Shown here piece after piece: positions 1 to 13,890 of a DNA stretch of 64,000 nt. The stretch spans positions 1 through 64,000 of the forward strand of contig JBEWZL010000210.1 in NCBI GenBank assembly GCA_045837725.1. Reading direction: 5' to 3'. Made by a program: the position numbers and the translations under genes. The stretch comes from Vermamoeba vermiformis. Taxonomy: Eukaryota. Under the pieces are notes generated by a model. The model had not been told where the DNA came from, made no database searches, and worked only from the letters and a program-made list of their open reading frames with translations. How positions within the stretch are numbered: position 1 is the stretch's first letter; the number at the start of each line of letters is the position of its first letter.

Positions 1-587
1 GTCGACTGTAACAATAAAATTACGTTTTTCAACATAGAACGACCACACTTATATCTTAAAGTTATATTTCTGTACAAAGTGGTCCCTGAATTGACGGCAA
101 TTGATGCGAAGTGCCGTAACTTTTGGTTGGTAAGCCAGATGCTGGATTTGTTTTTTCTGATCTTCGCATCACAACAAAATTAACGACTAATTCCATCGCG
201 ATAAATCATAATATTAATAATAGAGTGCCTCGTAAGCAATTACAAGCACTTTTGAATTATTTTGAATTATTTTTTAAAATTAACGCCTCCGATCTGTTCG
301 GCCATTGTGCTGCAACTATTCGGGTCGTACTTTCGATTTGTAACACTCTTATTAATACAATCTTATTGATAGGTGTGCGACTTCATATTGAGAAGATTTT
401 GTACAGGCGATTTAGGGGACCCGGACTCTATTGTTTGAGTTTTTTCTGCCATCTTTGTAAACAAATTCCAGTAAATTTCGCACAATAGTGGTGAGTTATT
501 ATCACTTTATACATGGCTAATGATTACTCAGTTTATTTTTGATGTGTTAGATCCGAACCACACGCGACCTCGAAAAGTGCCTCGGCA

Positions 588-3525
588 ATGGCCAAAGTAG
601 TAAACCTTGGTGCCACATGCTACATTAGCAGTTCTTTACAGCTATTATTTAGTATTGAAGCTTTCCGTGAGCTTGTTATATCATCAAAACCTACACACAA
701 ACTTGCGATTGAATTTCGACAGATTATCACACTTATGAAGAGTAATAAAACAATTCATATCGAACCATTAACAAGGCTATTGAAAATATCAAAAGCAAGC
801 TACCAAAAAGAACACCGTGATTTACAAGAGTTTCTGCTCAATTTATTGGACAAGTTAACTGAAGACTCTGAGTTCAAGCGAATTATAAAGCAAGTTTTTG
901 GTGGTGCCTTACAACGTAATGGTTCAGAATTAATGGAGCCTTTTATAGGTACAAATGACTGCTGCAACTCGACTTAATTTCAATTGACTTTATAATTTAG
1001 ATATTTCAATTCCAGTTGCCCCCGGCAATGTTGTGGACAGTTTAGTTCAACTTTTCAGCAGTGTACGTAACATTTGCATAAGACTTGGATTTTAACTTAT
1101 TCAATGATAAGGACTGGGGTTCACACAAATTTTTGACATTCCCCACTGCATTAGTCCTCCACCTTAAGCGTTTTGATAATCTGGGCAACAAGAATGAAGC
1201 GAAGTTTCACTTCAAGTCAACTCTAGTTATTCCAGCAAAGCTCAGTTGTAGTGGTCATGCAGAGACCTACCAACTCAAATCAATAATAGTGCACCAAGGA
1301 ACTGCTAAACAGGGTCACTACGTAACCTACAGCCTTGCGAACAACCAATGGCTTGAACTCAATGATGCAGTCGTCTCAAAGGTAGTCAAAGTATGCCATT
1401 TTGCAGGTTCTAACCTCAATGTAGGCTCCCAAAGACTTCATGCAGAGGTTATTTGAGGGAATTGCAAGTGCTTATATCTTAGTGTACTGCACACAGCGTA
1501 TTTCATCCCCAACCAAGTCCAGACCCACACGAATTATTGGAAATGAATCACAGCAATTTAATGATTTTATGGAATGGGACTCAACATCATGTCAAAGTGA
1601 TCCAATAGAGATATCAGATAGTGAATATGAAGCAAACGAAAGTGATGATATGAGTGAATCAATTGAAGAAGATAATGAAGAGACATCAGAAGTCGCAAGT
1701 CCTGCAGCAGTGAAAGAAGGTATTGATTTCTCATTCATTAATCATTTTGATAACCATTACTGGCAGCTAAACTTCAAGCAAAACTGTCTGGGTGGAAAAA
1801 CGATGGGAGTAAATTCAAGCCCAAAACTTCTCAACCATTGACAAACCCAGGACCAAAGCACCAGCTCATCTTAACAAAAATTAATGCAATACGTCATCAA
1901 CTGGGAAAGCCAAAACTGTCTTCAACACTACGTGTCACAGAGCTTGACTGTTACTTACTTATGATGAATGACATAATTGAACATATTGAAAAAACAACAG
2001 ATGCAAATCTGCACATCAAAGCAGTCGATTTGCGCGCTTATCTTGGTGTTAGAATTGCACAACAATTATTGCCAGGTCATTCTGTTGATGACTCTTGGGC
2101 CTCCTTTTTGCATTCACGCGCCATGTGGGGCAACAGGTGGATTGCTAAAACAATGCTAAAAGATGAATTCAAGTTTATACACCGGAACAAAAAGTAAGTT
2201 CGTTGTTCACTCACTGTAATGGTTCTTACCTTTGGTCTTAGGTATGATGTGTACTTTGTTTGGGCAGCTCTGAATCAAACCTACTCAGAAATATGGGTGC
2301 CATTCAGCCACCTTGCTTTAGATGATAAAGCAAATGCTTGGAAAGGAAGGTCAATTTACAAGATTTACAGATTACGCAAGCCATTCCCTTGGGCAATGTT
2401 AGAATATGTCATTATTGATGAAAGTGGATGGATGTCTGGCTTCATTCCTCGATATGGACTGTTTGCTACCATAACAGACAAGTTCAAGAAATGGCGAGAG
2501 TTATATCACGCCTTCAAAACAGGTCAACTTTCGCAAAGACCTCTACCATTTAAAACAATGTTTCCACGAGCATCAAAGACAAATTTCGATTTGGAAAAAG
2601 CCGTCAGTTTTTTATTGTCAAGACTCCCTGACAAACAAAGGCACGTTTATGACTTTATTAGAGAACCCACAAATTATGAAGAATGGAACAATCTGACAAC
2701 TCGAAACTTATCACACTATCATGTATTTTGTGACAGAGAGTTTTCCTCACTATGGCAGCACCTGCAAAAGCACAATATTGGATACACTGTTGGCATTATT
2801 GGAACATCACACCCTAACCTGTTTCAAAACAACCTTGCTCATTGTTTACAGCCAGGACAATGGCGCAGCTTAACAAACGACTCAGATATCATCATGTCAT
2901 TCTATGACCCTCAAGGCAAGACCTGTCACTGGGCTAGTAATCGAGGAACAGCAGCCTCAATTTCTGAAAAAGTAATTGATGGAAACAAAAAGAAAAAGCT
3001 TGCATACTCTGCTCCCCACTTGGTGCAACAATATCGGACATACTTCAGTTCTGTGGATAAGCATAACTCCAAAGCCAAGAAGTTTAAGTGGCCCTACCGG
3101 ATTCGAAAAGTAACAGAGCGCTTAGTATTTGCAGATTGGGAGCGCTCTGCTCAAGTTCAGGCAGAAACACTCTTCAAAAGACTCACCAACAGTGATATTC
3201 CTGCCAAGAAATTTCTTGCCAATTTAGCGCGCTCCCTGGTAGAGGAATTCCAATCAAAAAGGAAACGAAACTACACAATAGAAGCGTTAGATCTTGTGCG
3301 CGCCAGTGGAAAGCATAATCCATACACCCACACCTGTGCGTACGAATTTGGCAACTCCAAGCGTTGTTTCTTTTGTCAAACTCAAAAGATATCTTCTTCT
3401 ACACTGTAAGTATGTGTAGGTGTACTTTTGTCAAACTAATTAATTGCCTTAGCTACAAGTGCATTCAGTGCAAAGTTGCCTTACACAAGAAGTGCTGGAA
3501 GAAATTCAAAGGTGTAAATCTTTAA
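588..3525 (+). CDS. USP (peptidase C19) deubiquitinase fused to piggyBac DDD transposase with C-terminal Cys-rich finger, 886 aa, 7 exons
   Basis: Exons 588-948, 1001-1062, 1112-1390, 1425-1719, 1767-2193, 2242-3405, 3453-3525 join in frame through GT-AG introns. USP motifs: NLGATCY, LHLKRF, IIVHQG..GHY, WLELND, AYILVY. Transposase motifs: LALDDKANAWKGRS..KP, HVFCDREFSS, YRTYFSSVDK, and CxxC..CxxC..LHKKCW. Confidence 0.88.
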
Positions 3526-3563
3526 GTTTTGTACAAGGAGTTATCAGTTAACTATTGTGTGAA

Positions 3564-3831
3564 TAGCATGTAACACGTTGTGGTGTAGCATGAGCACGAA
3601 AGTGCCTGAGGCGGCTTTGACGCAAAAAACCTCGTGTGTAGGCACTGAGAGTTTGGGGATAGTCAGCTTGCTTCAGATTTATTCACATAATCACCTGCTA
3701 GGCTAACTGTTAGTAGCATGTAACACGTTGTGGTGTAGCATGAGCACGAAAGTGCCTGAGGCAGCTTTGACGCAAAAAACCTCGTGTGTAGGCACTGAGA
3801 GTTTGGGGATAGTCAGTTTGCTTCAGATTTA
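3564..3831. repeat. Two ~118-bp direct repeats (3564-3681, 3714-3831), subterminal in element 1
   Basis: TAGCATGTAACACG...CTTCAGATTTA occurs twice at a 150-bp period with 2 mismatches seen. Confidence 0.95.
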
Positions 3832-3900
3832 CTCAACAGACGATAGCCTGGGCTACTATTGAGCTTATTTATGAGAAATGGGAGCAGCCATGTCCAAATT

Positions 3901-3943
3901 CTGGTACGTCTACCGTGTAGACTTCCAGTTGGTTAAGGAATAT
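3901..3943. repeat. Right terminus of element 1 with internal imperfect palindrome, plus ATAT target site
   Basis: CTGG(TAC)GTCTAC-CGT-GTAGAC(TT)CCAG, then TTGGTTAAGGA|ATAT. Confidence 0.7.
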
Positions 3944-3971
3944 CATCTCATGACTAACCTTTGTTTATCAG

Positions 3972-4649
3972 TTCGAAAGAGTGAAGAAAGAGCAATTAGA
4001 GTACTACGAGATCTTGAAACAGCCCAATGCTGAGCCTGGTACTGCCCTTACCACTAAGTTTCCGTTCAGTGAATGCGTTATTCGTGAAGTGATTCGAACT
4101 TCAGTCTCTGGCATCTCGTTCAGACGCGCCATCACAGACTTTGTTCTGAACGACAACGGAACTAATTACTTCATTCCTAAAGGTAAGGTTAACGTAAATT
4201 AAATCTTTATCGTTAATGTTGTTGTAGACACTTACATAATTATGCCGTATAATACTATTGGCAAGGACACGAGTGTTCACAAAGACCCTGAAGTGTTCAA
4301 ACCGGAGCGATTCGAAACTGAAGCTAAAGGTGCTTGTGAGAACGTCACTTTTGGAGCAGGACGACACCCGTGCACTGGTACGTGAATTAATCGCGATTAT
4401 AATTTGAGCGTCATTTTGGCTAAATAATTTCCCTATCTTTCTTTGGGCCTTCATCTCTCCTCTTTTTCAGGCACCAAGTTCGCGATGCTGAACATCAAGA
4501 ACATTGCATTCAACATCATGAACTTCTACAAAGTTGATGTGCCCGGCGAGGTAGAAAACTACATGCCAAAGATGCAAACAATGGGTGTGTTCAGACCCAT
4601 CAAGCCCGTCATGTTCACTTTGACCAAGTTGAAACCGATCGAGTTGTAA
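3972..4649 (+). CDS. Cytochrome P450, last three exons (5' part lies beyond the transposon, outside the window)
   Basis: ExxR (EVIR), PERF and heme motif FGAGRHPCTG. Highly similar to the paralog at 15765-17737. Confidence 0.92.
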
Positions 4650-7557: not shown

Positions 7558-10500
7558 TTAAATATTGCGGCTGGCAGGAGGGCAGCGCTTAGGAATGGCA
7601 TTGATAAGACTTTCGGGCAAAGAGTCCACCTCGAACAGCGCTCCGTAGTCGGCGATTGCACTAAAAAAAAGAAAGAGAAATTAGACAACAGTGCTTAGAT
7701 TAACTTAGTCTCGACTATGAACTTACACGCTCTCAACGCCGTCTTCCCAACTCTTCTTGGGTCCAGCAATGACTTGCATAATGGTGTACTTGGCCGCTTC
7801 GAACTTCCATTCGCAGGTCTGAGGATTGACGTAGCTGAGGCAGCAATAGAACTTGCCGTACTTGGCAGGAATCTTGACCTTTCTGTACTCGTCGAAAGCT
7901 GCATTGACGACCTCGATGATCTCTTTCTCGGGAACGTGAATGGACCAATCACTAGTGAGCGCAGCCCAAATCAATTGTTCACTGTCGTCTATGAAAAACT
8001 TTTCAAGGGCACGCAAAGGCACCGGCTCAATTTGAGTGGGACCAAAGTCATCAGGCATCTTGGCACCAGCAGGCACATCAACCTCAAACGATCCTTCGGC
8101 CAAGGGATACGACGTCAAAGTGTTAATGTTGGTCGGTCCGTCCACGCGGTGCTGATGACGTGCATCGCCCTCAAAGACGTTGTAGTGCAGCGCCATTTCG
8201 ACCTTGTGCGTGCCAGGACCAGCGCGGAGCAAGTAGCTGTAGAGCAATCTGGACTTGACAGACCACGAGTTCGCGTGATTGGCGAAGTCAATGCCCAAGC
8301 CGAGGACATTGAAGAACACTGTCTGCTGCGTGTTGAACAATTTGCTGTCGCCCATGAAGTAACCAATGCTCTGCTGGAACTCGTGTCTTGGGTGCACGGG
8401 CTTGCCATCGATTTTGACCTGCAGTGACATGACCAGCTTGGGACAGTTGACCACGGCGTCCATGTGACCGTCCACGGTGTACACAGGAGTACCATCCTTC
8501 TTCTTGCCAATAGCGTAGTTAGCGAGAGATCGAGGCCACACTGCACGAGCACTGATTTGGTCTGACAAACTGAATTTGGTTTTCAACGCGTCCTTGTTTT
8601 GATCGATGAGCAGAGGAATGTCACCGGCGCCAAAGACGATCTTGCCAGCATATGGCGCGGTGTACTTGACGAATGCTTCGTGGTTCGTGCTGTCAGGTCT
8701 CTTGCCAAAGGGAAGTCCGCTTTGTGCGGGTGTGCCAGGACGAACAAGCTCGTAGTCAGGCATGCCAAAGTCTGCCTCAGTAGGCTGCCACAAGTCAGTG
8801 GGAGCAGTTGGAGTGGGCCAAACAGGTTCCAAGTCAGGAGTTCTGTCTTGCGGGTGGAAGCGGAATTCGCTGTCCAAAATTCTCGTCAAGCGGGAAATGA
8901 AGAAGCGACGGGCAACGGGCCACTGCTCGAGCTGCTTCAAAACTTCCAAGATATTCTCTTGCGTGTGATAAGGCGCCCGTGCGTTGGCGCGGACAATGAC
9001 TGACTCAATGAGGGACAAAATCTTCGAGACCTTGCCGCTGTGTTCTTTTTGGTAGATGATCTTGACCAATTCGGCTTGGTAGGGCGGGATGTTCGGGAAC
9101 TTTATGTTGAGCGAGTGCAATTCAGAAGCGATTTCATCGGCAAAGTCTGCAAGGTTGCTACGAGAAGCACCAACTTCGTTCACGATACGGCAGTACAACA
9201 TGCTGGCCTTCTTCAAAACCGTCACGAATTCTTCGACCAAGGTCTCGCGTTCCAAGTTCTCGGCAATGTAGCTGAAGCCCGTGTTGATTTGGTCCCACAT
9301 CGTTTGTCTCACTGTGTCCTTCTCGGTCTCTGGAATCTCTAACACTTGCTTCTTAAGCTTCTCGAGCAACGACCGCGCGTGATCCCACTTGCCGGCAATG
9401 TACTTAGGAGGGTTGTAAGGTTCACCAAGGACCACATGTTCTGTGACCTTTGCATCACGAATAAGCTCGTTGACGGCCTTCTTCCACTCGCCGTTAATGG
9501 TCAAAACGCTTGTATTCCATTGAATGATGAAGGTGCGCGTCTTGCCAGGAGTGTCAGCTTGTGCTTGGAGACTGGTAAATGGGGAAGCCACGTGAATGAC
9601 CCACGGGCCAACAGTAGCTGAGACTGGACCATTAGGGAAGCCAGGAGCATTGGGCACTATAATAATAAATGATTTAGTATCGATGTCTAACTATAATTGT
9701 CAAAGGTAATTAATTACCTGACTTGACAGGGGCATCAGCACCACCGGCAGCAGCGGCGCCTCCCATGGCAGCAGTAATCGTGCGCTCCAATGAATCAAGA
9801 GCGGTGCGTGTCTCGGCGACGTAGCTGACAACAAGAGGCAAGGTGTTGTAGGGCGGGCTCTCGAGCTCAGCAAGGCTGTCGTAGGCCTTGTTCAACGCGT
9901 CCAAAGCCTCTTGGTGGCGTGAGTGATCAACAAAGGTCTTGGCAGTGTTCACGTGACTCTTGCCAGCGTTGATCTTGTCGTAGACGACTCTGCCAAACAT
10001 GGCCTCGCCGATCTTGGCCTCTAACTGGTCGAGAGCAGGAACGGTGTCCTTCAAGAAGGCGATGGTGATGGCGATGGTGTTGTAAGGAGTCTCTTGAAGT
10101 TCTGCAATGACTTCACGGGCCTTGGCAACAGCAGTGAGAGCCTCGGTGTTGCGGCTGTGGAAGTTCAAGTCCTTGGCAGTCGAGATGTGAGTGTTGGCAG
10201 CACGGATCTTATCTTCAACGACTCGTCCGAACAGAACTTCAGCAATCTTGCCTTCAAGAGCGTCAAGGGCGGGCTTGGCGTCCTTCAAGTAGGCAATAGT
10301 GGCTTCAAGTGTGGCGTAAGGAGGCTGCTCGATTTCAGCGATAGCACCACGAGCCTTGTCAATAGAAGTGAGGGCTTCTTCGTTTCTTGAGTGCTTGTGC
10401 AAGTGTTCAGCTTCAGTGACTAAGGTCTTCACGGCACGGATCTTGTCTTCAACCACGCGACCAAACATGGCTTCACCGCACTGACGTTCGTATTGATCAA

Positions 10501-13492
10501 TTTGCTTCTCGAACTCGGGCAAGAACTCCGCAGTGAGCTTCAAGCTGCTGTAGGGAGCTTCTTTCAGTTCGGCAATGATTTCACGGGCCTTGGTGACGGC
10601 ATCAAGGGCTTCTTGGAATCTGCTCTGATAGTGCATGTCCTTGGCAGTGCTCGCGTGAGTCTTGCCGGCACGAATCTTCTCTTCAACAACTCGGCTGAAC
10701 AGGGCTTCACCACACTGTGTCTCATACTGATCAATTTGCTTCTCGAACTCGGGCAAGAACTCGGTAGTGAGCTTCAAGCTGTTGTAGGGAGCTTCTTTCA
10801 GTTCGGCAATGATTTCACGGGCCTTGGTGACGGCGTCGAGAGCCTCTTGGAATCTGCTCTGATAGTGCATGTCCTTGGCAGTGGAGCCGTGAGTCTTGGC
10901 TGCACGAATCTTCTCTTCAACGACTCGACTGAACAAGGCTTCACCACACTGACGCTCGTACTCATCAATTTGCTTGACGAAGGGGGGAAGGAAACTGGCA
11001 ACATCTTGAAGTGAGTTCCAAGGGGCCTCTTGCAACTCGGCGATGACTTCACGGGCCTTGGTGACAGCGTCGAGTGATTCTTGGAACCGGCTCTGGTAGT
11101 GCATGTCCTTGGCAGTGGAGCCATGAGTCTTGGCAGCGCGGATTTTGTCATCAGCAAGGCGAGCAAACATTGATTCACCGCACTTCATTTCAAGGTCATC
11201 AATCTGCTTGACGTATGTGTTGAGGAAGGTCTTGACAATCTCCAAATTGACGTAAGGAGGTTGAGCAAGCTCGTTGATCTGCTCGCGGGCCTTGGCAACA
11301 GCGTCGAGTGACTCTTGGAATCTGCTCTGGTAGTGCATATCCTTGGCAGTGGAGCCGTGAGTAGTAGCTTGACGGATCTTCTCCTCAGCGACACGAGAGA
11401 ACATCTTTTCACCGCATTGTTTCTCGTACTCATCGATTTGCTTGACGAAGGCTGGCAAGAATTCGACAACGGCCTTGAAACCGTTGTAAGGTGTCTGGTC
11501 GAGTTCGGCGATGACTTCACGGGCCTTGGCAACTGCGTCGAGTGATTCCTGATATCTGCTTTGGTAGTGCATGTCCTTGGCAGTGGAGCCGTGGGTCTTG
11601 GCTAAGCGAATCTTTTCGTCAACGACTCTGCCAAACATCTCTTCACCACACTTCTTCTCGTATTCATTGATCTGCGTAACGAAGGCTGGCAAGAACTCGA
11701 CGACGGCCTTGAATTCAGCAAAAGGGGGATTAGACAGCTCAACAATGAGCTCGCGGGCCTTGGCAACAGCGTCGAGTGACTCTTGATATCTGTTGTGGAA
11801 AAGCATGTCCTTGGCCTTGGCACCGTGGGTCTTGGCTTCACGGATCTTGTCGTCAACTAAGCGGCTGTACATGCCTTCCCCACATTGCTTTTCGTATTGA
11901 TCGATGAGCTTGATGAAGTCAGGCAAGAATTTCTCAACATCGGCGAAGGTGTTAAACGGGGCATTGGACAACTCGGCAATGCTTTCGCGGGCCTTGGCAA
12001 CAGCTTCAAGAGCTTCCTTGTATCTGCTATGATAGTGCATGTCCTTGGCTGTGGAACCGTGAGTCTTTGCAGCGCGGATCTTGTCATCGACAATTCGGCC
12101 ATACATCTTCTCACCGCACGACTTCTCCAGGTCATCGATCTTGGGAATGAACTTGGCCAAGAAGTCAACAACGGTCTTGTGAGTACCAAAAGTCGATTGC
12201 AGATCTGAGATTGCATCGCGAGCCTTGGCAATGGCGTCGAGAGCCTCTTGATATCTGCTTTGGAAGTGCATGTCTTTGGCCTTGTCACCATGGGTGTCAG
12301 CAGCGCGAATCTTGTCGTCGATAATTCGGCCATACATCTTCTCACCACACGACCTCTCCAGGTCATCGATCTTGGGAATGAACTTGGCCAAGAAGTCAAC
12401 AACGGTCTTGTGAGTACCAAAAGTCGATTGCAGGTCTGAGATTGCATCACGAGCCTTGGCAATAGCGTCGAGAGCCTCTTGATATCTGCTTTGGAAGTGC
12501 ATGTCTTTGGCCTTGTCGCCATGGGTGTCAGCAGCACGGATCTTGTCGTCGATAATTCGGCCATACATCTTCTCACCACACGACTTCTCCAGGTCGTCGA
12601 TCTTTGGAATGAACTTGGCCAAGAAGTCTACAACAGTTTTGTGGGTACCAAAAGTCGATTGCAGATCTGAGATTGCATCGCGAGCCTTGGCGATGGCATC
12701 GAGAGCCTCTTGATATCTGCTTTGGAAGTGCATGTCCTTGGCCTTGTCGCCATGGGTGTCAGCAGCCCGGATCTTCTCGTCGATAACTCTTCCATACATC
12801 TTCTCACCACACTTCTTCTCGTATTCGTCAATTTGTTTGATGAAGTCGGGAAGGAAGGTAACAACGGCAGAGTGAGTGCTGTACGGGGCTTCCGAGAGCT
12901 GAGCAATGCTTTCGCGGGCCTTGGCAACAGCGTCGAGTGACTCTTGATATCTGTCTTGGAACAGCATGTCCTTGGCCTTGGCACCGTGGGTCTTGGCTTC
13001 GCGGATCTTGTCGTCTACTACTCGTCCCATCATAGAATCAGCAATCTTCTTCTCGATGGTGTCGATCTGTGCACGAGACTCGGTGACAAACGTCTTGACT
13101 GCGTCAGCGAAATTGTAAGGAGCTGCGTCCAATACAGCCAAAGCAGTGCGAGCCTTATTGACGGATTCAGAGGCCTCAGCGTATCTATTGTGGAAGTGCA
13201 TCTGGTTGGCGTTGGTCAGGGGACCTTTGACGTCTGAGTACAAGCCATCCAAAGCCTTCTTGACGAAGTTGCTTGCGTCGCTTTCGAGCTTCTTGAGGTC
13301 ATTCTTGGCAGCAGTAACGAACTGTTGAGTCTTGGCAAAGGTCGCGGGAACGATCTTGGTCAGACTTTCCTTTTCAAAGGCGACTACTGCGTCTTTAAGC
13401 TTAAGCACTTCTTGGAGTTGAGCATTAGCCTCTTCGAAGGTCTTGAATTCACGCTTCTTGAGCGAGTTGAGTAAGGCTTCTAGCGCTTCCAT
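7558..13492 (-). CDS. ~1935-aa protein with 15 tandem 77-79-aa helical repeats and an uncharacterised C-terminal region
   Basis: Exons 13492-9718, 9656-7727 and 7660-7558 join in frame. Strong codon bias toward C/G-ending codons. Confidence 0.88.
9790..13260 (-). repeat. Coding tandem repeat array (231-237-bp unit, 15 copies)
   Basis: Unit ..KIRxAxTHGxxAKDMH(F/Y)QSR(Y/F)QE(A/S)LDAxxKAR..P(Y/F)..FLP.F.KQID.YE..CGE repeats. Three 231-bp copies at about 12110-12800 are nearly identical. Confidence 0.95.
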
Positions 13493-13890
13493 GCCTACAA
13501 CAACAAAGATCAGTGTCAAATCCAACGAATCTCGGATTACAATCAAAATTTTATGCATTAAAAGGCGTAATTAGATTATATGTTGCATTTATAATAACCT
13601 ACCTTTGTTTCGCTCGTGTTGTATCTTTAAGGCAAGTAATAAAGTAATGCGTGTTCAAGGATCTTTCCTTTTATCCTCGCTCTCGTCACTTACAATGTGA
13701 CCAATATCGATAAACTACCAATCATAAAAAGGACCGAGCAATCACATCACATTTTTCAGTTCCATGAACGATGGGCGCTGAGGTCCCTTCGTCACGCGAC
13801 ATTCGCAGAAAGAATTAATAGACCCTAACAAGCTATGTCAGCAATAAGAAACCACATATAATTGAAAGATTACTCACGAATAGGTATATA

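What the first reader, a model, noticed from the sequence alone, without database searches (positions are those of the whole stretch)
588..3525. Intact piggyBac transposase fused to a USP deubiquitinase
Seen: six GT-AG introns splice the fragmented ORFs into one 886-aa frame. It has a compact USP domain with Cys (NLGATCY), His (GHY) and Asp (LND), an acidic linker, a piggyBac core with all three Asp positions (LALDD, FCDRE, SVDK) and a Cys-rich finger. The gene lies inside transposon-like DNA with subterminal repeats and a recognisable terminus. Known: other DNA transposons carry Ulp1/SUMO or OTU proteases. I do not know of a described piggyBac carrying a USP/C19 domain. Inference: an autonomous element with its own deubiquitinase, which could protect the transposase from degradation or remove histone ubiquitin.
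Basis: partly seen in the sequence, partly recalled or inferred. Interest (0 to 1): 0.92.

Follow-up and report, generated by a model that had tools for sequence, protein, structure and literature searches.

The report
Deubiquitinase fused to piggyBac transposase gene
A eukaryotic gene joins a small ubiquitin-removing enzyme to a complete piggyBac-type "cut-and-paste" DNA enzyme, and a distant relative keeps the same fusion, but nothing shows that it still moves as a transposon.

Summary
It has a Pfam UCH/USP domain with Cys, His and Asp boxes, an acidic linker, a piggyBac DDE_Tnp_1_7 core with its three catalytic Asp, and a Cys/His-rich tail.

A metagenome contig (L001) carries the same fusion with all six introns at the same positions. 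Synonymous sites between the two are saturated (pS 0.80), while pN is 0.35 in the USP, 0.23 in the transposase core and 0.10 in the Cys-rich tail. Both halves and the open linker are therefore under selection. Full-length relatives without a USP begin to align at exon 5, so the USP is an N-terminal addition to a complete transposase.

The "transposon" part is not supported. I found no terminal inverted repeats, no TTAA duplication, no second copy in the window and no motif shared by both ends. The "subterminal repeats" lie only 3' of the gene. They fold as a conserved, strand-specific structured RNA.

My reading is a piggyBac-derived fusion gene whose mobility is unproven. A low-copy autonomous element remains a live rival. 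I found no published piggyBac-USP fusion. UCH domains have been reported in Helitron-like elements.

The parts
129..363 (+). Upstream non-coding block conserved with L001 114-349. The left limit of detectable homology starts at GGTAAGC.
   Evidence: Local alignment score 73 against a shuffle mean of 32.5 and maximum of 56, 0 of 200 shuffles as high. Window 1-128 vs L001 1-113 is not above chance (32 of 200 shuffles). Window 364-587 vs L001 350-522 is not above chance (125 of 200).
588..3525 (+). USP-piggyBac fusion gene, 883 aa. Exons 588-948, 1001-1062, 1112-1381, 1425-1719, 1767-2193, 2242-3405, 3453-3525.
   Evidence: There is an in-frame stop just upstream of the ATG in both the window and L001. 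Homology with L001 starts at the ATG.
588..1499 (+). Minimal USP (peptidase C19/UCH) domain, aa 1-257, spread over exons 1-4. Cys11 codon 618-620, His210 codon 1316-1318, Asp226 codon 1364-1366. No zinc-ribbon cysteines.
   Evidence: Pfam UCH covers model positions 3-129 and 142-239 of 254. PDB: USP34 7w3r at 7.3e-10 and Ubp8 at 3.7e-07. Catalytic boxes are kept in L001.
1500..1719 (+). Acidic, poorly conserved linker (aa 258-330). It lies in the same exon as the end of the USP domain and is read as the transposase's N-terminal disordered region.
   Evidence: 36% aa identity with L001. The frame stays open and the indels are whole codons. An acidic N-terminal disordered region is described as characteristic of the superfamily (PMC9499001, passages).
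1720..1766 (+). Intron 4 (47 nt, phase 1), the only splice between the USP-plus-linker part and the transposase part.
   Evidence: An intron sits at the same position in L001 (1660-1711). If the intron is retained, the frame stops at 1841.
1767..3405 (+). piggyBac transposase body (exons 5-6). Asp499/Asp500 codons 2321-2326, Asp636 codon 2732-2734, Asp744 codon 3056-3058. The fourth reference Asp is Asn747.
   Evidence: Pfam; piggyBat alignment; invariant columns in A1. Homology to USP-less relatives starts at exon-5 residue 8. Foldseek top hits are 6x67 and 9c0f, on a low-confidence model.
3314..3522 (+). C-terminal Cys/His-rich domain split by intron 6 (H835, C837, C847, C850, C863, C866, H871, C874).
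   Evidence: Read from the model sequence. It is the most conserved part: 83% identity with L001, pN 0.105. Pfam gives only weak RING-like/C1 matches (0.04-0.2).
3553..3857 (+). Two tandem ~150-nt units that fold into the same multi-hairpin RNA on the + strand.
   Evidence: the repeat finder D1. The same two-unit array is in L001. RNAalifold gives -32.3 kcal/mol with compensatory changes at 13 of 37 pairs. The minus strand gives -9.9. Single-sequence z-scores are -3.6, -3.2, -3.2 and -0.6. No Rfam family matches.
3905..3946 (+). Highly conserved last 42 nt of the shared block (short hairpin plus CCAGTTGGTTAAGGAATAT). All homology with L001 stops here.
   Evidence: 88% identity, E 1.9e-09. The sequence beyond it is not above chance (29 of 200 shuffles). 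The motif is unique in the window.

Best explanation
This is a real, intact and selectively maintained gene. One polypeptide carries a minimal USP-type deubiquitinase, the acidic disordered N-terminus typical of piggyBac transposases, a complete piggyBac catalytic core with its three Asp, and the C-terminal Cys-rich DNA-binding domain.

Shown: the USP was added to the N-terminus of an already complete transposase in a small, deeply branching piggyBac clade, and at least two lineages have kept the fusion.

Inferred: the locus behaves as a piggyBac-derived gene rather than as a canonical TTAA/TIR element. It is a single ~3.8-kb conserved unit (129-3946) with multiple introns, a conserved upstream block and a structured-RNA 3' region.

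Inferred mechanism: the transposase module binds, and probably still cuts, specific DNA. The tethered USP removes ubiquitin in cis, either from the enzyme itself or from chromatin proteins at the bound site, and so controls its stability or its access to DNA.
For: Gene model and domains.

Second locus: L001 has the same order of parts (tblastn aa 1-123, 119-326, 330-472 and 472-883 in order). It gives an 884-aa open frame with six introns at homologous positions.

Selection: pS is 0.80 (saturated). pN is 0.35 for the USP, 0.29 for the transposase N-terminal part, 0.23 for the core and 0.10 for the Cys-rich domain. The 73-codon linker is open in both loci.

USP as an add-on: P0004 (648 aa) and P0006 (588 aa) align from exon-5 residue 8 at their own residues 91 and 44. 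0 of 10 top relatives carry UCH.

Leaning to 'derived gene':
- No TIR or TTAA.
- No k-mer of 7 or more shared by both ends in both loci.
- No other copy of the gene, the repeat or the end motif in 64 kb.
- Six introns. In PMC5381638 (passages), multiple introns are reported for the domesticated PGBD5, Pgm and Tpb2.
- The fourth reference Asp is Asn in 3 of 3 members of the window/L001 clade, but Asp in 5 of 5 USP-less relatives.
- The 3' repeats fit an RNA structure on the sense strand better than a DNA binding-site array.
Against: - Non-coding blocks (129-363 and 3526-3946) are conserved although synonymous sites are saturated and introns are at the random baseline (58.6% against a shuffled 55.7%).
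- The shared block ends abruptly after a very well conserved 42 nt. That pattern fits a mobile unit's cis-acting end.
- The block ends 25 nt before the acceptor of a cytochrome P450 exon whose upstream exons are not in the window. This looks like an insertion.
- All three catalytic Asp and the Cys-rich domain are intact, so nothing rules out activity.
- The window starts only 128 nt left of the shared block, so a left end further out cannot be excluded.
- There is no transcript evidence for the fused mRNA.
- The proposed function of the USP is pure inference.
Confidence: 0.5

Rival explanations
1. It is an autonomous, low-copy piggyBac-like transposon that carries its own deubiquitinase. The conserved 3' region, and a left end not seen here, would be the cis-acting ends. 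The USP would protect the transposase from ubiquitin-dependent turnover or open chromatin.
For: - The catalytic triad, Cys-rich domain and N-terminal disordered region are intact.
- Non-coding flanks are conserved at saturating divergence, with a sharp right boundary.
- The two loci lie in unrelated flanking DNA.
- The unit sits 25 nt upstream of a P450 exon acceptor, as expected for an insertion into an intron.
- The right end contains GG followed by TTAA, as at piggyBac right ends (recalled form; sequence).
- UCH domains are reported inside another DNA-transposon group (PMC11417382, passages).
Against: - No TIR pair. The best left-versus-reverse-complemented-right alignments score only 25 and 32 (no shuffle control was run for these).
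- No TTAA at the homology boundaries. The 10 nt after the internal TTAA are shared by both loci at 9 of 10 positions, so that TTAA is not a target duplication.
- No shared end motifs.
- No extra copies or MITE-like relics in 64 kb.
- Only 2 relatives above 50% identity in 5.8 billion clusters, each on 1 contig.
- The 3' repeats behave as RNA.
Confidence: 0.35
2. The USP and the transposase are made as separate products: two adjacent genes, or alternative splicing with retention of intron 4. The single 883-aa frame would then be only a modelling result.
For: No RNA evidence for the junction. Retaining intron 4 ends the frame at 1841 in the window and within 4 codons in L001, so a USP-only product is possible.
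Against: - Exon 4 runs from the end of the USP domain through the linker without a stop in both loci.
- Linker indels are whole codons.
- Intron 4 has the same position and phase in both loci.
- There is no stop codon after the USP domain in either locus.
- Relatives show that the transposase homology begins right after the intron.
Confidence: 0.08
3. It is a decaying or chance assembly of fragments (a pseudogene) with no function.
For: None beyond the lack of expression data.
Against: Two loci with saturated synonymous divergence both keep open frames of 883 and 884 aa, all catalytic residues and all splice sites.
Confidence: 0.02

Closest known systems
piggyBac / piggyBat transposases (PDB 6x67, 9c0f)
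   Same: DDE_Tnp_1_7 core with three aligned Asp, an acidic disordered N-terminus and a C-terminal Cys-rich domain.
   Different: Very divergent: phmmer E 0.12 to 9c0f, and only 37 hits at E <= 1e-3 in 1.84 billion representatives. It has an ~70-aa longer spacing between Asp1 and Asp2, an N-terminal USP and six introns. No TIRs or TTAA were seen.
Domesticated piggyBac fusion genes (PGBD1 = SCAN + transposase; CSB-PGBD3)
   Same: A host-type domain is placed N-terminal to a whole piggyBac transposase through splicing, and the fusion is under purifying selection (PMC5381638 passages; PMC3459987 and PMC2268245 abstracts).
   Different: The partner here is an enzyme (a USP deubiquitinase), not a SCAN or SWI/SNF part. 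The catalytic triad is intact. The organism is an unnamed eukaryote with ~45-nt introns, not a mammal.
PiggyMac / Tpb2 of ciliates
   Same: piggyBac-derived genes with several introns, an intact catalytic core and a Cys-rich domain, used by the host as nucleases (abstracts; PMC5381638 passages).
   Different: No USP domain is reported for them. There is no evidence here for programmed DNA elimination. The standard genetic code fits this gene.
Helitron-like elements (HLE2) that carry UCH, OTU or Ulp1 domains
   Same: A ubiquitin-family cysteine protease, including Pfam UCH, is stably associated with a DNA transposon's coding region (PMC11417382, passages).
   Different: That is a different transposon class (rolling-circle RepHel). 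Here the UCH is fused in frame to a DDE/DDD cut-and-paste transposase.
RAG1 (RING E3 ligase + Transib-derived core)
   Same: A transposase-derived nuclease fused N-terminally to an enzyme of the ubiquitin system (PMC10799480, passage).
   Different: The chemistry is opposite (ligase versus deubiquitinase), the transposase superfamily is different, and RAG1 has a known function.

Membership tests
piggyBac superfamily transposase (Pfam DDE_Tnp_1_7) | Profile match above the curated threshold | tested here: met
   43.3 bits against a 22.4 cut-off on the exon-6 ORF. The nearest Atlas clusters are 92-100% PF13843.
piggyBac superfamily transposase (Pfam DDE_Tnp_1_7) | Catalytic Asp triad (D268/D346/D447 of the T. 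ni enzyme; numbering recalled) | tested here: met
   Asp499/500, Asp636 and Asp744 align with LSLDE, YMDNY and GVDRAD of piggyBat. They are invariant in 8 of 8 sequences. The fourth reference Asp is Asn.
piggyBac superfamily transposase (Pfam DDE_Tnp_1_7) | C-terminal Cys-rich domain | tested here: inconclusive
   An eight-ligand Cys/His pattern is present and 83% conserved. No Pfam zinc-finger model reaches its threshold.
piggyBac superfamily transposase (Pfam DDE_Tnp_1_7) | RNase H-like fold resembling solved piggyBac structures | tested here: inconclusive
   The model has mean pLDDT 54.7. Foldseek's top three hits are 6x67_C (6.9e-06) and two 9c0f chains, but TM-scores are only 0.19-0.25.
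piggyBac-like element (mobile PBLE) | 12-19 bp terminal inverted repeats | tested here: not met
   No inverted pair flanks the gene in the window or in L001. Caveat: only 128 nt (window) and 113 nt (L001) lie left of the shared block.
piggyBac-like element (mobile PBLE) | TTAA (rarely another 4-bp) target-site duplication | tested here: not met
   No TTAA at either homology boundary. The TTAA at 3929-3932 is followed by sequence shared with L001.
piggyBac-like element (mobile PBLE) | Several copies, or polymorphic insertion | not testable with these tools
   No genome is held. There is one copy in 64 kb. Metagenome contigs show no joint that skips the unit.
piggyBac-derived (domesticated) gene, PGBD type | Transposase-derived ORF without TIRs, under purifying selection | tested here: met
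piggyBac-derived (domesticated) gene, PGBD type | Orthologous, syntenic position in related species | tested here: inconclusive
   The flanks of the window and L001 are unrelated. Divergence is saturating, and the relationship between the two hosts is unknown.
USP / peptidase C19 (Pfam UCH) | Profile match above threshold covering the whole core | tested here: met
   58.2 and 65.3 bits against 23.9; model positions 3-129 and 142-239 of 254.
USP / peptidase C19 (Pfam UCH) | Cys box, His box and Asp/Asn | tested here: met
   NLGATCY aligns with the same string in USP34. GHY...LND aligns with the Ubp8 His box. All are kept in L001.
USP / peptidase C19 (Pfam UCH) | Isopeptidase activity on ubiquitin (rather than SUMO, NEDD8 or ISG15) | not testable with these tools
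   The finger region is very short and has no zinc cysteines (sequence), so specificity is open.

The most novel reading that the evidence does not exclude
A previously undescribed lineage of piggyBac elements that is still mobile, encodes its own deubiquitinase in frame with the transposase, and carries two copies of a novel structured RNA in its 3' region. This would be a transposon that manipulates the host ubiquitin system directly and may use an RNA element for its own regulation. The window copy would sit in an intron of a cytochrome P450 gene.
Probability: 0.3. Interest if true: 0.8.

Novelty: new variant of a known kind. Interest (0 to 1): 0.6.

Why it matters
Transposases fused to other domains are a known route to new genes, and some transposons carry Ulp1, OTU or, in Helitron-like elements, UCH proteases. 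A deubiquitinase fused in frame to a catalytically intact cut-and-paste transposase, and kept under selection in two deeply diverged lineages, did not turn up in five full-text searches.

If the USP acts on the transposase or on ubiquitinated chromatin at its binding sites, it would be a natural example of a DNA-targeted deubiquitinase. It would also be a functional mirror of RAG1's E3-ligase-plus-transposase design. It could be tested directly with standard Ub-AMC and excision assays.

The conserved structured RNA repeats downstream are an unexplained element in their own right.

Tried and rejected
- RNA test. No RNA holder was listed for the stretch. Three RNA-seq runs with the same species label were laid: 0, 2 and 4 reads, none on 588-3525, all 95-99% alike and on the P450 part. 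The tool rates this as no test of expression.
- Loose-end sequence. The 30-nt loose end of the reads at 3980 is not in the window at up to 3 mismatches. The reads seem to come from a homologous P450, so they do not decide whether the unit lies in an intron.
- Metagenome contigs of run X3 cover 1-3943 with no joints. Word depth is similar in the left flank and the gene (4.2-5.9). The tool states that this depth is not a copy number.
- No whole genome is held, so there is no copy count.
- Protein searches. 'Longer' with exon 6 found no hit. 'Near' found only P0001 and P0002. USP exon 1 'near' found no hit. The tools call these blanks weak evidence.
- Earlier findings of the scan: nothing by place, sequence or words.
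- tRNA and Rfam searches of the window's first 4.7-6 kb and of L001 gave nothing above threshold.
- Viral-contig scans for the repeat core and the end motif gave 0 matches.
- The Atlas look-up of an RPA-like neighbour, meant to place the organism, gave no usable hit.
- The left flank as a P450 exon was rejected: there is no Pfam match for the open frame 1-183.
- An 11-mer inverted between L001 68-78 and 3783-3793 has no counterpart in the window. I treat it as chance.
- The spliced USP domain could not be folded, because only unspliced window sequence may be handed to the structure tools.
- Supplementary tables of PMC11417382, PMC12062965 and PMC5381638 were not seen. They may list domain combinations that bear on novelty.
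Full report
**Observation.** The ORF fragments between 543 and 3525 on the + strand join through six GT-AG introns into one open frame from the ATG at 588 to the TAA at 3523-3525. The introns are 949-1000, 1063-1111, 1382-1424, 1720-1766, 2194-2241 and 3406-3452, each 43-52 nt.

Pfam UCH matches the exon-1 and exon-3 ORFs at 58.2 and 65.3 bits (cut-off 23.9). Together they cover model positions 3-129 and 142-239 of 254. DDE_Tnp_1_7 matches the exon-6 ORF at 43.3 bits (cut-off 22.4) and the exon-5 ORF weakly.

Against solved structures, exon 1 is closest to the USP34 catalytic domain (7.3e-10), which has the identical NLGATCY Cys box. Exon 3 aligns its GHY...LND with the Ubp8 His box (3.7e-07). 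Exon 6 aligns LALDD, FCDRE and SVDK with the three catalytic motifs of piggyBat 9c0f, although the pairwise E-value is only 0.12. A structure model of exon 6 was poor (pLDDT 54.7). Its three best Foldseek hits were still piggyBac 6x67 and piggyBat 9c0f, which is weak support only.

**Is the fusion real?** A search of 1.84 billion representatives with exon 6 found only 37 proteins at E <= 1e-3. The best three are P0001 at 66%, P0002 at 53% and P0007, a fragment, at 57%. The rest are at about 30% or less. Of the ten best, 8 carry DDE_Tnp_1_7 and 0 carry UCH.

A metagenome scan returned three loci. L001 (4379 nt) matches the whole model in order. It yields an 884-aa open frame with six introns at the homologous positions. 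Between the two loci, amino-acid identity is:
- 49% in the USP;
- 36% in the linker;
- 58.5% in the transposase N-terminal part;
- 64.7% in the core;
- 83% in the Cys-rich tail.

Synonymous differences are saturated (pS 0.80), while pN is 0.35, 0.49, 0.29, 0.23 and 0.10 for the same five parts. Both domains are therefore under purifying selection. The poorly conserved linker still keeps its frame, with whole-codon indels only.

Exon 4 encodes both the last USP strand (AYILVY) and the acidic linker. The USP-to-linker join therefore needs no splice, and only the step from the linker to the transposase body crosses intron 4.

Full-length relatives without a USP (P0004, 648 aa; P0006, 588 aa) begin to align at exon-5 residue 8, at their own residues 91 and 44. 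They have short acidic N-termini. An acidic disordered N-terminus is described as typical of the superfamily (PMC9499001, passages). The USP is thus an N-terminal addition to a complete transposase.

**Is it a transposon?** Between the window and L001, homology covers window 129-363 and 588-3946. The first block scores 73 against a shuffle maximum of 56. The last 42 nt of the second are 88% identical (E 1.9e-09). Nothing outside these limits rises above chance.

Introns are at the random baseline of my aligner (58.6% against 55.7% for shuffles). The two non-coding blocks are at about 66%. With synonymous sites saturated, those blocks must be constrained.

I found no inverted-repeat pair, no TTAA at either boundary, and no k-mer of 7 or more present at both ends in both loci. 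There is no further copy of the gene, the repeat core or the end motif in the 64 kb. The TTAA at 3929-3932 is followed by 10 nt of which 9 are shared with L001, so it is not a target duplication.

L001 has the same two-unit array. All four units fold independently into the same closing stem with three hairpins on the + strand:
- MFE is -46, -44.3, -45.5 and -36.6 kcal/mol.
- z-scores are -3.6, -3.2, -3.2 and -0.6.
- 13 of 37 consensus pairs show compensatory changes.
- 0 of 500 shuffles reach the observed value on four of five measures.
- Slid controls give 2-4 compensatory pairs. The caveat is that the structure was derived from this same alignment.

The minus strand folds far less well. The repeats therefore look like sense-strand RNA, probably 3' UTR, rather than transposase-binding DNA. 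No Rfam family and no tRNA matches them.

Points that favour mobility remain:
- The right boundary is sharp.
- The flanks of the two loci are unrelated.
- The shared block ends 25 nt before the acceptor of an intact three-exon 3' part of a cytochrome P450 (3972-4182, 4228-4377, 4471-4649), and the upstream P450 exons are not in the window.
- Only 128 nt lie left of the shared block, so a more distant left end cannot be excluded.

**Criteria from the literature.** PMC5381638 (passages) separates piggyBac-like elements (TIRs of 12-19 bp, a TTAA duplication, one ORF) from piggyBac-derived genes. It lists multiple introns for PGBD5, Pgm and Tpb2, and extra domains for PGBD1 and PGBD3. By those criteria this locus looks more like a derived gene.

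A small further hint comes from the fourth reference Asp. It is Asn in the window, P0001 and P0002 (3 of 3), but Asp in the five USP-less relatives (5 of 5).

I therefore give 0.5 to 'piggyBac-derived fusion gene, mobility not shown', 0.35 to 'low-copy autonomous element', and small weights to separate products or decay.

**Mechanism.** This section is inference. The transposase module has an intact triad and a very conserved Cys-rich domain, so it should bind and probably cleave specific DNA. The USP is tethered by a flexible acidic linker. It would remove ubiquitin from the enzyme itself or from nearby chromatin proteins. Its finger region is very short and lacks zinc cysteines, so its substrate (ubiquitin or a ubiquitin-like modifier) is open. 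Retention of intron 4 would give a USP-only product in both loci. That is a possible regulatory isoform, but it is untested.

**Novelty.** Five full-text searches found no paper describing a piggyBac transposase with a USP/UCH domain. Term searches inside PMC5381638, PMC12062965 and PMC10799480 also found none. Supplements were not seen, and Repbase, Dfam and InterPro could not be queried.

UCH domains are reported in HLE2 Helitron-like elements (PMC11417382, passages), so a transposon-linked UCH is not without precedent. RAG1, a RING E3 ligase joined to a Transib-derived core (passage in PMC10799480), is a conceptual mirror.

The nearest Atlas clusters of the transposase part are ordinary piggyBac families, commonest in diatoms, oomycetes and arthropods. 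None lists UCH.

**Limits.** There is no genome, no usable RNA evidence and only two loci. The left edge of the window is close to the unit.

Noticed in passing
window 3553-3857; L001 3483-3790: Two tandem ~150-nt units just after the stop codon fold into the same multi-hairpin RNA on the sense strand. Compensatory changes occur between the loci and between L001's two copies. No Rfam family matches. An unknown structured RNA element.
   Followed up: yes
window 3972-4649: The intact last three exons (179 aa, with the FGAGRHPCTG haem motif) of a cytochrome P450 start 25 nt after the end of the conserved unit. The roughly 300-aa N-terminal part is not in window 1-3971. The P450 is either split by a >3.9-kb intron holding the fusion gene or truncated.
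   Followed up: partly
window 3980-4158 and 4467-4600 (runs X20, X19): A few RNA reads at 95-99% identity lie on the P450 exons. Those at 3980 continue upstream into sequence absent from the window, which suggests an expressed homologous P450 elsewhere or in another strain.
   Followed up: partly
window 3908-3925; L001 3814-3833: A short hairpin (GTCTAC...GTAGAC in the window; a 7-bp stem with a different loop in L001) sits just before the conserved terminal motif. Single-sequence z-scores are only -1.4 and -1.2.
   Followed up: partly
window 491-550: A GT...AG stretch of 60 nt (GTGAGT...TGTTAG) lies in the presumed 5' UTR, 38 nt before the ATG. It may be a 5' UTR intron. This region is not conserved with L001.
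   Followed up: no
window 7723-13570 (- strand): Two long intron-free ORFs (655 and 1286 aa) lie in a stretch of raised G+C (0.47-0.52 against about 0.40 elsewhere). The longer one gives only scattered low-complexity Pfam matches with no proper domain.
   Followed up: no
L002 (1790 nt) and L003 (1218 nt): These are distant (28-32% identity) piggyBac relatives from other metagenomes. L002 matches from model residue 337 onwards and has only 235 nt upstream, with no USP match.
   Followed up: partly
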